Below, in pieces: positions 12,001 to 14,543 of a stretch of 14,543 bases of DNA. The position numbers were made by a program. The DNA comes from Candidatus Latescibacterota bacterium (GTDB lineage: Bacteria > Latescibacterota > UBA2968). The stretch spans positions 30,200 through 44,742 of the forward strand of contig JAYODI010000044.1 in the NCBI GenBank assembly GCA_038279365.1, written 5' to 3'. Position 1 is the first letter of the stretch. Every line of letters begins with the position of its first letter.

Positions 12001-14543
12001 GAAATGTATCCCGAATCAACAAGCAATGTACACCACGTAACCCTTCAAGCAGAAACAGGACAAACACAAAAACACCTTTGTAGCACCATTAAAAACTACG
12101 GCGGTAAAATAGGCAGTTTGTTAGAATCGCCTTGGGCACCTGGCACAATCATGCTCACCAAAGAAGCATCCAGCCAATTGGGTGCATATCGCAACATAGA
12201 CAATACCCTTTGGGAATATGCGCTTCGACAAATTAACCGCCAAGCAACACCTCAAATCTTAGAAGAAGATTTGGCCATCTGGCGAACAGAAACCCAACAT
12301 ATCAAACCCAGTCTTGTGGCGTCACAAATACAACATCGGTTTTTGAAACCCTATATCGACAAAACAGACACGCCCACATTGTTTACAGAACACCATTTGG
12401 TATCTGACATTCATGGACACTTGGTTCGCAATGCACTTTACCAAAAAAATGACGATCTTGATGCCGCACACCAAATATGTCAATCGGTGGGAGAAGGTTC
12501 ATCCTTACCCGAAATAAGCTATTGGCACGGCATTATTCATCGCAGAGAACCCGACATAAATAATGCGCGCAATTGGTTTCAAAGAGCTCAAAATTTGGCA
12601 GCCAACGATGCGCTTTATCGCGCAGCATATAGCCATTTGCAACGTGCCATTCAAATGCCCGATTATGGTGAGGCCCGAGAAACAGCCCTCCAATTTTTGC
12701 GCCACTTACAAACACAAGACACTTGGGACGCCCTTTATTTTTTGAATTTATGTGCATCTTGTTTACAAAATAAAGATCCCAATTTACAAAAACTCTTAGA
12801 AGACCTCCAAACCATAGAATTTAAAACGCTGTTCCATTGGACCTTTCAAAAAGCCACAGGACAAATATAACATCCTGAAAATATTTCAAAAAAAAGCCAT
12901 CGCAAATGCGATGGCTTTTTTTATTTAAAATCTGTTGGTCACACGTTCAAATCCGACACATCACGATGCATAAGGCGAAAAACGCCGCAGCAATACAGGC
13001 ACCAAAAAAACACAAATAAGTGCTTCTGGAATCACAAAGCTTGCATTATATAAGGCAGCATACATCCAAACAGGTGTGCCCTCAGGGGCATATTCGCCAA
13101 AAAATACAAAACCAGATACAAAATGCGAACACCACCGCAACAAACTGGCACATAAAATACCCAACCAAATTCTGTTGGGAAACAACCCCGCCAAACCCAA
13201 CAAAGCAAAAGGCAATGGGTAATCTAAGACAACCTGCACAGGATGAAAAATAAATGCCCCAAAAAACAATTGTAAAACCCCATCCAAACACCCCGTTAAA
13301 ACACCCAATCGCCAACCGCCCCAAAAAGCCATAAACAAAATGGGCAATGTCTCAAGCGTAATAGAACCGCCTTGTGGCAATTGCAAGGGCAAGACTTTTC
13401 CCACCATACCCAAAACAACAGCCAATGCCGCCGCCATGCCACAAAAAGTAATGTCGCGTGTGCCCAATTTCATGCCGTCCTCAATGTTTGTCTATTCGTC
13501 ATACAAGAGCCTCTTTTTTGCGTTGCTGTGTCTTCAGAATATCTTTATTATGTCATATTGCTTACAAGGCCAACCCTATTAAAATACGGCCTGCGTCTCA
13601 CATTTTCAAAAATATTTCTCGACCATGGCAAACGGCGTATGATCATGGCATAAAAAAAGCGTCAGAATACTTTATTCTGACGCTTCATAATACGGTGCTA
13701 TTTTGCCTTTTTTTTGTCCCAAATGGGTTTTATTTTTTCAATAACCTCTGCATCCGTAGGACAGGTATTAATAATTTCGGTAAAATCATCTGCAGCAATC
13801 CCAAGTTCCTCCAGGAACTTTTTGTCTGCGCCTCAAGGGTAGATATAATCACCAATCGTACCACGCAACTTGGCGCGTGCTTTGTCTGTAATACGTGGCA
13901 ACCAAGGCATGCCTCCCATTGTTAATTGACGGCTTCGTGGCCGAAAGTCAACAGCTGGACTCAGTTGATCCATAAATATCACCTCCTTCTCATCAAATGG
14001 TTATCATCACTTCAAAATGAACCTTTTAAGTTCTGTTGTCAAGAACGAAAGCGATGTGTTTAACGTGCAAAAACGAAAATATAACAGTTGCAATTTCTAC
14101 AGCGCATGCATTTTCCTCATTGCGCTTACCATTGGGCCTCTCACGCAAAATGCGTCAGCCCAAACCTATCAGGAAGCCCCTGAGTTTGCCAAACGTGTTG
14201 CAAAAGGTGAGTTGCCACCCGTGTCACAACGTTTGCCCGAAGAACCATTGGTGCTTGAGCCCTATGAAGAAATTGGGCAATATGGCGGCACTTGGAATCG
14301 CATGATGAAAGGAACCAGCGATTTCCACGCTTTTGGACGGTGTGTTTACGAACAAATGCTGCGCTGGGCCCCAGATCCCAAAGATGGTATTTTGCCCGGC
14401 CTGGTCAAAGAATGGGCCTTTACAGAAAATGGTAAAACACTCACCCTTATACTGCGCAAAGGCCTCAAATGGTCAGATGGGCACCCCTTTTCAACAGATG
14501 ACATTCTCTTCTGGTGGGAAAAAATCGCCCAAGACCCCAATCT

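What a model noticed while it worked through the whole genome (the two positions that open the first line are those of the whole stretch)
13698..13982. DUF5069 small protein is a selenoprotein
C6:43897-44181(-) encodes a 94-aa DUF5069 protein with Sec (U50, TGA 44032-44034) in GDYIYPU-GADKKF. The UGA is kept across the class; a few relatives and the solved homologue have Cys.
Evidence so far: PF16798 hit on the N-terminal piece. 50 of the 53 best rows in 61 genomes have one TGA, 3 none; those three have Cys; PDB 3OMD has Cys at the aligned place. Hairpin AAGUUCC-UGGA-GGAACUU at C6:44002-44019 with a compensatory variant in G060. Model pLDDT 83.9, only 3OMD (unknown function) matches. No NCBIfam hit; not in the catalogue; no paper holds DUF5069 or PF16798.
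(Added by a program. Inside this text positions count along the whole contig: contig position 30,200 is position 1 of the stretch shown here. "Call 12" and the like, gene names such as g00115 and contig names such as C1 are that model's own, and its searches are not shown. The text may have been shortened before it was handed on; [...] marks where a part breaks off. The agent that wrote the report below was given it as the finding of a first reader that could run no searches.)

Follow-up and report, generated by a model that had tools for sequence, protein, structure and literature searches.

The report
New selenoprotein family in DUF5069
A small 91-residue protein of unknown function in an uncultured sediment bacterium almost certainly carries selenocysteine at an in-frame TGA, which adds an unlisted family to the known selenoproteins and marks the family's hallmark cysteine as its reactive residue.

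Summary
Window 13698-13973 (-) is a 91-codon gene (ATG start, not the GTG) with one in-frame TGA (13833-13835), followed 12 nt later by a 7-bp hairpin with a UGGA loop (13803-13820). Read through, it is a short DUF5069 protein (PF16798, 66.9 bits).

Four lines point to selenocysteine:
- **Decoding machinery:** the genome has selA, selB, selD and tRNA-Sec in one cluster.
- **Conservation:** 104 of 119 orthologues in the class (Candidatus Latescibacterota MAGs) keep the TGA. The other 15 have Cys there, as does PDB 3OMD.
- **Coding frame:** the 35 codons after the TGA evolve as coding sequence in the same frame.
- **Hairpin:** it occurs in 75 of 76 distinct Sec forms, including Candidatus Poribacteria, but only as a 4-bp remnant in 1 of 20 Cys forms. 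Its outer pairs covary and its synonymous sites are frozen. It meets the published bacterial SECIS model and has the same 12-nt spacing as this genome's selD SECIS.

DUF5069 is absent from the 119-family 2026 catalogue, from NCBIfam and from the searched literature.

Function is unknown. The Sec column is Cys in most relatives sampled and sits at a helix N-cap in the model, so a single-Sec redox or transfer role is inferred. No selenium incorporation has been shown.

The parts
13698..13973 (-). Gene for a 91-aa short-form DUF5069 selenoprotein (ATG 13971-13973, stop TAG 13698-13700)
   Evidence: Translation. PF16798 scores 66.9 bits against a cut-off of 27. Orthologues found in 119 of 132 genomes of the class.
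13833..13835 (-). In-frame TGA read as selenocysteine (Sec47; U50 if counted from the GTG)
   Evidence: Same column is TGA in 104 and Cys in 15 of 119 orthologues. Cys in 3OMD. An independent DNA run bridges the codon with no difference.
13803..13820 (-). SECIS-type hairpin: 7-bp stem AAGUUCC/GGAACUU with loop UGGA, starting 12 nt after the UGA, written in the codons K-F-L-E-E-L
   Evidence: Folding. Covariation counts. Census of Sec and Cys forms. Synonymous-site freeze. Same 12-nt spacing as this genome's selD SECIS.
13982..13987 (-). Shine-Dalgarno AGGAGG, 8 nt before the ATG; the alternative GTG start (13980-13982) overlaps it
   Evidence: Read directly from the sequence.
13656..13686 (-). 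Intrinsic-terminator-like hairpin (14 pairs) followed by a T run, 11 nt after the stop codon
   Evidence: Terminator scan.

Best explanation
The gene encodes a free-standing, cytosolic, four-helix, short-form DUF5069 protein of 91 residues in which codon 47 (UGA) is decoded as selenocysteine.

**Decoding (inferred from sequence evidence, not shown by experiment).** The mRNA hairpin 12 nt downstream of the UGA (7-bp stem, loop UGGA with G at loop positions 2 and 3) acts as a bacterial SECIS. SelB, loaded with Sec-tRNA(Sec), binds it and delivers Sec to the ribosome when the UGA reaches the A site. The genome supplies selA, selB, selD and tRNA-Sec.

**Biochemical role (inferred, about 0.4).** Sec47 replaces the hallmark Cys of the family's Y-P-C-P motif and sits at the N-terminal cap of helix 2. 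No conserved second Cys is present. It would therefore act as a single reactive selenolate, in one of two ways:
- as a one-Cys-type reductase, cycling through a selenenic acid or selenenylsulfide that an external thiol system reduces
- as a carrier of sulfur, selenium or a metal

The substrate is unknown.
For: **Sec machinery in the genome, one cluster on contig C34:**
- tRNA-Sec at 68.1 bits, called tRNA-SeC with anticodon TCA by ARAGORN
- selB at 378.9 bits
- selA at 592.1 bits
- selD at 366.7 bits, itself with one TGA

**Ordinary genetic code.** 3 of 12 window genes end in TGA, and none of the other 11 has an internal in-frame TGA.

**Sec/Cys pair.**
- 104 of 119 orthologues have TGA and 15 have Cys.
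- In fetched loci, 63 have TGA and 7 have Cys at the same column.
- Database homologues are either full length with Cys, full length with W (TGA read under another code), or cut off at ...YP.
- 3OMD has Cys at the aligned place.

**Coding constraint after the TGA.** pN/pS is 0.45 over the 35 downstream codons, against 0.99 and 1.55 in the two wrong frames.

**Hairpin.**
- It is present in 75 of 76 distinct Sec forms. Among 20 distinct Cys forms, one keeps a 4-bp remnant and one keeps the stem with a changed loop.
- 93.6% of cells pair, against 27-66% when the 3' partners are slid, and 0 of 500 shuffles reach the observed value.
- Three outer pairs covary: GC 29 / CG 20; AU 17 / GU 14 / UA 9 / GC 8; CG 16 / AU 13 / GC 3.
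- pS falls to 0.23 in the six hairpin codons, against 0.65-0.73 elsewhere.
- Leu is CTG in all 63 Latescibacterota and all 23 Poribacteria Sec forms aligned.
- It fits the published bSECIS model: loop 3-9 nt, stem 4-16 bp, G in the first two loop positions, 16-37 nt spacing, MFE <= -7.5 (PMC13188914 section 5, read). Here the loop is 4 nt, the stem 7 bp, the spacing 19 nt and the MFE -7.8.
- This genome's selD SECIS has the same 12-nt spacer and a GGU loop.

**selB in TGA-bearing genomes.**
- 100 of the 104 TGA genomes have selB over its cut-off.
- Two of the remaining four have selB fragments at contig ends.
- 5 of 5 Sec-form Poribacteria genomes have selB.
- The two genera with no selB hit in any of their genomes (4 genomes) carry the Cys form (3 genomes) or no orthologue (1 genome).

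**Role.**
- The Sec column is Cys in 132 of 197 domain rows.
- The model places residue 47 directly before helix 48-57.
Against: - No experiment shows selenium in this protein. The RNA-library contigs that hold the gene do not prove transcription, and none bridges the TGA by 31 nt on both sides.
- The hairpin's stability is marginal and unremarkable against shuffles (z -0.99).
- Its four inner pairs and the loop never vary, so they give no covariation. They also encode conserved F-L-E-E, so part of their conservation is protein-level.
- The covarying pairs change mostly between large clades, which means few independent events.
- G073 (98% complete) carries the TGA form, but only a 44-residue selB fragment was found there.
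- Against the proposed role: there is no CxxU/UxxC motif, no thioredoxin fold, no conserved partner Cys and no conserved functional neighbour across phyla. 29 of 197 related domain rows have Ser at this column.
Confidence: 0.85

Rival explanations
1. The UGA is read through without selenocysteine: by near-cognate tRNA (Trp or Cys), or because the organism reads TGA as a sense codon. On this view the hairpin only slows the ribosome.
For: Some database gene calls translate the codon as W (P0002, P0003, P0004, P0007, P0011, P0013). The hairpin is not very stable.
Against: - TGA ends 3 of 12 genes in the window, and no other gene there has an internal TGA. The W calls are therefore artefacts of a gene caller's code.
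- The substituting residue in nature is always Cys, never Trp.
- The hairpin matches the SelB-type model and the spacing of selD's SECIS.
- A full Sec machinery is present.
Confidence: 0.04
2. The TGA is a true stop. The product is a 46-residue peptide and the rest is untranslated remnant (a pseudogene), or the TGA is a sequencing error.
For: Table 11 gene callers stop there.
Against: - The TGA stands at the same column in 104 genomes of the class and in 23 Poribacteria loci.
- The downstream 35 codons are under purifying selection in frame.
- There is no in-frame ATG, GTG or TTG after the TGA (sequence).
- The Pfam match runs across the TGA.
- The terminator follows the distal stop, not the TGA.
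- An independent DNA run has the same letters.
Confidence: 0.02
3. It is a selenoprotein, but Sec47 is a metal or cofactor ligand, or a carrier of sulfur or selenium as a persulfide or perselenide, rather than a redox catalyst.
For: - Short DUF5069 modules are fused to Cupin_2 in 3 of 22 longer relatives scanned, to DUF2249 in 1 and to a methyltransferase in 1.
- There is a single Cys/Sec with no resolving partner.
- The 2026 review notes that several selenoproteins use Sec as a metal ligand (PMC13188914, section 7, part 2 read; passage shown).
Against: No second ligand residue (Cys or His) is conserved in the short subfamily. The invariant residues are G, P, W, L, R, I, T, D, K, A, Y, C and F. 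No metal-handling neighbour gene is conserved.
Confidence: 0.3

Closest known systems
PDB 3OMD, uncharacterized protein of Leptospirillum rubarum (DUF5069, PF16798)
   Same: - Same family by sequence: profile E 1.7e-17 over 72 residues.
- Same fold: Foldseek TM 0.76 and rmsd 1.8 over 78 columns; VIA Z 11.3 over 85 residues, with the next hit at 4.2.
- The motif Y-x-C-P-x-D aligns with Y-P-U-G-A-D.
   Different: - 3OMD has Cys, not Sec.
- It is 145 residues and covers the whole 133-position Pfam profile, whereas this protein covers only positions 4-75 and is a short form.
- No function is known for either.
Computationally defined bacterial selenoprotein families of unknown function, such as the DUF523-, DUF166-, DUF1573-, DUF1858- and DUF3179-domain selenoproteins in Table 1 of PMC13188914
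   Same: They were defined by the same criteria used here: an in-frame UGA aligned with Cys in homologues, a bSECIS hairpin, and a Sec-decoding host (PMC13188914, section 6 passages seen; Table 1 read).
   Different: - DUF5069/PF16798 is not among the 119 listed families, and no NCBIfam selenoprotein model matches.
- The fold is all-helical, whereas most characterized selenoproteins have a thioredoxin-like fold according to that review.
- There is no UxxC or CxxU motif.
The selD (selenophosphate synthetase) SECIS of the same genome
   Same: UGA, then a 12-nt spacer, then a hairpin whose loop holds two G at positions 24-25 counted from the U of UGA.
   Different: selD has an 8-bp stem and a 3-nt GGU loop with unrelated sequence. 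The DUF5069 hairpin has a 7-bp stem, a 4-nt UGGA loop, and a 12-nt core UUCCUGGAGGAA kept with at most one changed letter across two phyla.

Membership tests
Bacterial selenoprotein gene (SelB/SECIS-dependent UGA recoding) | In-frame UGA at a column where homologues have Cys | tested here: met
   - 104 orthologues have TGA and 15 have Cys, of 119.
- 63 U and 7 C in the fetched loci.
- Cys in 3OMD.
Bacterial selenoprotein gene (SelB/SECIS-dependent UGA recoding) | bSECIS hairpin just downstream: loop 3-9 nt, stem 4-16 bp, G in the first two loop positions, 16-37 nt from the UGA, MFE <= -7.5 (model as given in PMC13188914) | tested here: met
   Loop UGGA, 7-bp stem, 19-nt spacing, MFE -7.8 kcal/mol. 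Present in 75 of 76 distinct Sec forms. Covariation in the three outer pairs.
Bacterial selenoprotein gene (SelB/SECIS-dependent UGA recoding) | Host genome encodes selA, selB, selD and tRNA-Sec | tested here: met
   All four lie on contig C34 and score over their cut-offs.
Bacterial selenoprotein gene (SelB/SECIS-dependent UGA recoding) | Sequence after the UGA is translated in the same frame | tested here: met
   pN/pS is 0.45 in frame, against 0.99 and 1.55 out of frame. Third-position entropy is 1.33, against 0.78 and 0.61 at positions 1 and 2. The Pfam match spans the UGA.
Bacterial selenoprotein gene (SelB/SECIS-dependent UGA recoding) | Selenium shown in the protein (75Se labelling or mass spectrometry) | not testable with these tools
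   No proteomic data were at hand. RNA-library contigs only show that the sequence is present in metatranscriptome libraries.
DUF5069 (Pfam PF16798) | Score over Pfam's gathering cut-off | tested here: met
   66.9 bits against 27, E 2.6e-18.
DUF5069 (Pfam PF16798) | Whole 133-position domain present | tested here: not met
   Only profile positions 4-75 are matched. The protein ends at residue 91, followed by a terminator. It is a short form, and many relatives of 80-100 aa exist.
Thioredoxin-fold thiol/selenol oxidoreductases (UxxC / CxxU) | UxxC or CxxU motif and a thioredoxin-like alpha/beta fold | tested here: not met
   The motif is Y-P-U-G-A-D with no Cys within 3 residues. The model has four helices and no sheet. 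Structure searches match only 3OMD.
NCBIfam selenoprotein families (NF04xxxx models) | Match over a model's curated cut-off | tested here: not met
   The best hit is SaoT NF040730 at 13 bits against a cut-off of 65.

The most novel reading that the evidence does not exclude
DUF5069 is a previously unrecognised class of single-cysteine/selenocysteine enzyme built on its own four-helix fold, which matched no other solved structure in these searches. The Sec forms in Latescibacterota and Poribacteria reveal its catalytic residue. The Sec form, with its almost invariant UUCC-UGGA-GGAA SECIS core, moved between these two phyla by gene transfer. It has since reverted to Cys several times, leaving decaying SECIS relics. 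Reversion of this kind is described as rare in bacteria.
Probability: 0.35. Interest if true: 0.7.

Novelty: new member of a known kind. Interest (0 to 1): 0.6.

Why it matters
- **A new family.** It would add one more family to the 119 prokaryotic selenoprotein families and subfamilies listed in 2026. It is found in two candidate phyla with no cultured members among the records seen here.
- **A clue to function.** Sec/Cys pairs are a recognised pointer to reactive cysteines. The finding therefore gives the first functional clue for a domain of unknown function that has had a solved structure since 2010: the Cys of its Y-P-C-P motif should be the working residue.
- **Annotation.** Gene callers cut the protein at residue 46 or translate the codon as Trp, so public annotation of this gene is wrong in more than a hundred genomes.
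- **SECIS evolution.** The hairpin shows a SECIS locked by protein and RNA constraint at once. The Cys forms with relic hairpins document Sec-to-Cys reversion.

Tried and rejected
- **Rfam**: no family matches the hairpin. This says little, because bacterial SECIS elements are not covered by one model.
- **Hairpin stability**: tested as evidence and rejected as uninformative (z -0.99).
- **Gene neighbourhood in Latescibacterota**:
  - An RsmD-like gene lies directly upstream in 3 of 3 loci of genera g6, g8 and g10.
  - A 345-418-aa ORF with no confident family hit lies upstream in 5 of 5 family-f4 loci.
  - Neither is in the window, where the neighbours are a ThiT-like transporter and a divergently oriented solute-binding protein.
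- **Gene neighbourhood in Poribacteria**: pheA follows the gene in 13 of 13 downstream ORFs scanned. No partner is shared across phyla, so no function was drawn from context.
- **Domain fusions**: cupin, DUF2249, methyltransferase, AI-2E transporter and dienelactone hydrolase. Too varied to name a substrate.
- **ESM Atlas**: the recoded protein was not accepted. A natural Cys homologue returned only DUF5069 clusters at 0.87-0.88.
- **Wide structure search**: nothing but 3OMD stands above background.
- **BSepDB supplement**: no occurrence of 'DUF5069', 'PF16798' or even 'DUF' in the roughly 4 million characters searched, so that check is inconclusive.
- **selB as a discriminator**: selB is also present in 12 of 15 Cys-form Latescibacterota genomes and 5 of 5 Cys-form Poribacteria genomes. 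Its presence does not predict the Sec form. Only its absence goes with Cys.
- **RNA-library contigs**: they stop at 13697 and 13982 in two runs. I do not read these as transcript ends, because the 5' one would cut the ribosome-binding site and the contigs are short unitigs.
- **Homodimer prediction** was not run, because the report makes no binding claim.
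Full report
**What is in the sequence**

On the minus strand of the window, an ORF runs from an ATG at 13971-13973 to a TAG at 13698-13700, interrupted by one in-frame TGA at 13833-13835.
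- The ATG is preceded by AGGAGG (13982-13987) at 8 nt.
- The GTG proposed as an alternative start is part of that ribosome-binding site.
- Orthologues become alike only from the 'MD.LS' that the ATG begins. The protein is therefore 91 residues and the TGA is codon 47.
- A terminator-like hairpin of 14 pairs with a T run follows the TAG at 13656-13686.
- No ATG, GTG or TTG lies in frame after the TGA, so the distal half cannot be made on its own.
- With Cys standing in for the TGA, the product matches Pfam DUF5069 at 66.9 bits (cut-off 27) over residues 15-86, straight across the TGA. It covers only positions 4-75 of the 133-position profile.

**The organism can decode Sec and otherwise uses TGA as a stop**

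One cluster on contig C34 of the window's genome holds four genes:
- selA at 592.1 bits
- selB at 378.9 bits
- selD at 366.7 bits, itself with one TGA
- a tRNA-Sec at 68.1 bits, which ARAGORN calls tRNA-SeC with anticodon TCA

In the window, 3 of 12 genes end in TGA, and none of the other 11 has an internal in-frame TGA. A reassigned code is therefore excluded.

**The TGA is conserved and alternates with Cys**

- A six-frame search of all 132 species genomes of the class found orthologue-level matches (E <= 2.8e-17) in 119. By my hand tally of the listing, 104 have exactly one TGA inside the match and 15 have none (repeated).
- I fetched 70 of these loci (30, 40). 63 have TGA and 7 have TGC or TGT at the same column, and all 7 read C-P-A-D.
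- None of the 36 genomes of the phylum outside this class has a match at E <= 1e-12.
- Record titles from a scan of public genomes name the organisms as uncultured Candidatus Latescibacterota MAGs, some labelled Gemmatimonadota.
- The same scan found the gene in Candidatus Poribacteria. Of the 28 Poribacteria loci kept in the tree, 23 have TGA and 5 have Cys.
- In protein databases the family shows the usual signs of a missed selenoprotein. Some close homologues are full length with Cys. Six are full length with Trp at the site, which is TGA read under another code.
- The solved homologue 3OMD has Cys at the aligned place in Y-N-C-P-L-D.

**The part after the TGA is translated**

Figures are for the 63 Latescibacterota Sec forms.

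| Region | pN/pS |
|---|---|
| 30 codons before the TGA | 0.31 |
| 35 codons after the TGA, in frame | 0.45 |
| After the TGA, frame +1 | 0.99 |
| After the TGA, frame +2 | 1.55 |

Third codon positions are the most variable on both sides of the TGA.

**The hairpin behaves as a SECIS**

Twelve nucleotides after the UGA lies AAGUUCC-UGGA-GGAACUU (13803-13820), written in the codons for K-F-L-E-E-L.
- **Fit to the published model.** The bacterial SECIS model, as stated in the 2026 review (PMC13188914, section 5, read), requires a loop of 3-9 nt, a stem of 4-16 bp, a G in the first two loop positions, 16-37 nt between UGA and loop, and an MFE of -7.5 kcal/mol or lower. Here the values are 4 nt, 7 bp, UGGA, 19 nt and -7.8 kcal/mol.
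- **Stability alone is weak evidence.** 34 of 200 shuffles fold as well (z -0.99). The weight rests on the four comparisons below.
- **Link to the TGA.** Among 76 distinct Sec-form sequences, 75 have a stem of 5-7 bp closing a UGGA loop at this place, and the 76th has a 6-bp stem with loop CUGGAU. Among 20 distinct Cys forms, one keeps 4 bp with the loop, one keeps the 7-bp stem but with loop UACA, and 18 have nothing homologous.
- **Frozen synonymous sites.** pS drops to 0.23 in the six hairpin codons, against 0.65-0.73 elsewhere. Leu is CTG in all 86 aligned Sec forms. Cys forms with the same F-L-E residues use CTC, GAG and other codons.
- **Covariation of the three outer pairs (86 sequences, 51 distinct).** The pair counts are GC 29 / CG 20 / AU 1 / GU 1; AU 17 / GU 14 / UA 9 / GC 8 / unpaired 3; and CG 16 / AU 13 / GC 3 / unpaired 19. 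Overall 93.6% of cells pair, against 27-66% when the partners are slid, and 0 of 500 shuffles reach the observed value.
- **An internal control.** This genome's selD has its SECIS at the same 12-nt spacing, with two G at the same distance from the UGA.

Three limits apply to this evidence:
- The four inner pairs and the loop never vary and also encode conserved residues.
- The covarying changes separate large clades, so they represent few independent events.
- Three Poribacteria carry one extra codon before the hairpin, which gives 15-nt spacing with a different but still paired outer stem.

**Link to selB across genomes**

- selB scores over its cut-off in 122 of 132 genomes of the class, and in 100 of the 104 genomes that have the TGA form.
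- Of the four exceptions, two have selB pieces at contig ends. One has a weak C-terminal piece. G073, 98% complete, has only a 44-residue piece. G073 is unexplained and may be an assembly gap.
- In two genera no genome has a selB hit. They comprise four genomes: three carry the Cys form and one has no orthologue.
- Cys forms also occur in genomes that have selB: 12 of 15 in the class, and 5 of 5 Poribacteria tested.
- All 5 Sec-form Poribacteria genomes tested have selB.

**Independent reads**

- The stretch occurs at full identity in estuary, salt-marsh and marine-sediment runs.
- A DNA run from another study has a contig across the TGA with no difference.
- Contigs from three metatranscriptome libraries cover 13697-13982 without any difference. 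None bridges the TGA by 31 nt on both sides, and DNA carry-over cannot be excluded. This is only a weak sign of expression.

**What the protein is**

- An AlphaFold2 model built on 17 sequences has pLDDT 72.6 and pTM 0.60. It shows four helices at residues 25-36, 48-57, 61-70 and 74-90, so residue 47 caps the second helix.
- Foldseek matches only 3OMD: TM 0.76, rmsd 1.8 over 78 columns.
- The Foldseek-independent search also matches only 3OMD, at Z 11.3 with the next hit at 4.2.
- A profile search of 1.84 billion representatives found 795 relatives at E <= 0.001.
The Y-P-C-P cysteine is therefore the hallmark of the relatives sampled here, which lean towards close ones.
- Within the short subfamily it is the only conserved Cys.
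- The window's genome also has two tandem full-length paralogues and a 443-residue protein with three DUF5069 repeats, all without TGA. Only the middle repeat has the Cys.

**How it most likely works**

Decoding follows the standard SelB/SECIS route. This is inferred from sequence evidence that I consider strong, at about 0.9.

The chemistry is inference only. The inference rests on three observations:
- a selenolate at a helix N-cap
- no resolving partner
- a position where Cys is otherwise kept

Together these suggest a one-Cys-type redox cycle or a transfer function. I put about 0.4 on a redox catalyst and about 0.3 on a ligand or carrier role.

Context gives no substrate:
- The neighbours differ between lineages.
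- The fusions are varied.

**Evolution**

- On a tree of 110 rows (87 Sec, 23 Cys; some genomes are present twice from two sources; 81 columns, so weakly resolved), at least 6 Sec/Cys changes are needed.
- Two species inside the otherwise Sec-bearing genus g6 have Cys, with hairpins one mutation away from the Sec-form hairpin. G118 has Cys with an intact stem and an altered loop. These look like recent Sec-to-Cys reversions.
- The 2026 review calls such reversions rare in bacteria (PMC13188914, passage seen).
- The Poribacteria clade (SH-aLRT 96) groups with Latescibacterota families f1-f3 rather than outside the phylum, and it shares the 12-nt SECIS core. This hints at transfer between the phyla, but the data cannot settle it.

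**Is it known?**

- No paper in the searched library holds 'DUF5069' or 'PF16798'.
- Searches for Latescibacteria with selenocysteine and for Poribacteria with selenoprotein gave nothing on this protein (listings only).
- '3OMD' returns only unrelated uses of the string among the 10 of 22 papers listed.
- I read Table 1 of the 2026 review in full: 119 families, each with a domain identifier. It does not list this family.
- NCBIfam release 20 has no matching model.
- Passages of the deep-Sep paper and the BSepDB paper list no such family. BSepDB's supplement could be searched only in part, and supplements of the older source papers were not seen.

I therefore rate it a new member of a known kind. 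It is a new selenoprotein family, decoded in the ordinary way.

**Verdict**

I put the probability that this is a genuine selenoprotein gene at about 0.9. Its function remains open.

Noticed in passing
L155-L192 (Candidatus Poribacteria loci), about 1500-3000 in each locus: In Poribacteria the DUF5069 gene, whether Sec or Cys form, is followed on the same strand by pheA (chorismate mutase + prephenate dehydratase + ACT) in 13 of 13 downstream ORFs scanned. It is preceded by a UPF0182 membrane protein in 8 of the 12 upstream ORFs scanned. This may be conserved synteny or an operon.
   Followed up: partly
L159:250-1476 (+), and the like-sized ORF L160:246-1472: In L159 the gene directly upstream is a glutaredoxin fused to a pyridine-nucleotide disulfide oxidoreductase, a possible reductant system. 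L160 has an ORF of the same size in the same place, but I did not scan it.
   Followed up: no
L102, L103, L110 (Latescibacterota genera g10, g8, g6): An RsmD-like 16S rRNA methyltransferase gene (Cons_hypoth95; TIGR00095 at 114.8 bits, just under its cut-off) sits directly upstream on the same strand in these three genera. It is not upstream in the window's genus.
   Followed up: partly
L104, L106, L107, L108, L109 (family f4): A conserved ORF of 345-418 aa with no confident Pfam or NCBIfam hit lies directly upstream of the gene on the same strand. One copy has a weak aminoglycoside-phosphotransferase-like match (E 1.4e-4). A further 124-129-aa ORF lies before it in three of the loci.
   Followed up: partly
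G000:C180:16600-17439 (L096) and G000:C109:10804-12045 (L098): The window's genome has two tandem full-length DUF5069 genes next to an ECF-sigma-like gene, and a 443-aa protein made of three DUF5069 repeats. Only the middle repeat keeps the Cys.
   Followed up: partly
G073 (98% complete genome of the class): It carries the TGA form of the gene, yet only a 44-residue selB fragment (76 bits) was found. This is either an assembly gap or an unexplained exception.
   Followed up: partly
L031, L033 (genus g6) and L095 (G118): These Cys forms still carry a nearly intact or partly intact copy of the SECIS hairpin. They look like recent Sec-to-Cys reversions.
   Followed up: partly
window 8863-10035 and 9896-11707 (+): As listed, the ABC ATPase ORF and the following permease ORF overlap by 140 nt. 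The permease probably starts at a later codon. The permease ORF (603 aa) has two BPD_transp_1 stretches.
   Followed up: no
record titles: Several genomes that the genome library groups in the same class as the window are labelled Gemmatimonadota, Gemmatimonas phototrophica or Planctomycetota in their public titles. These are probably mislabelled MAGs.
   Followed up: no
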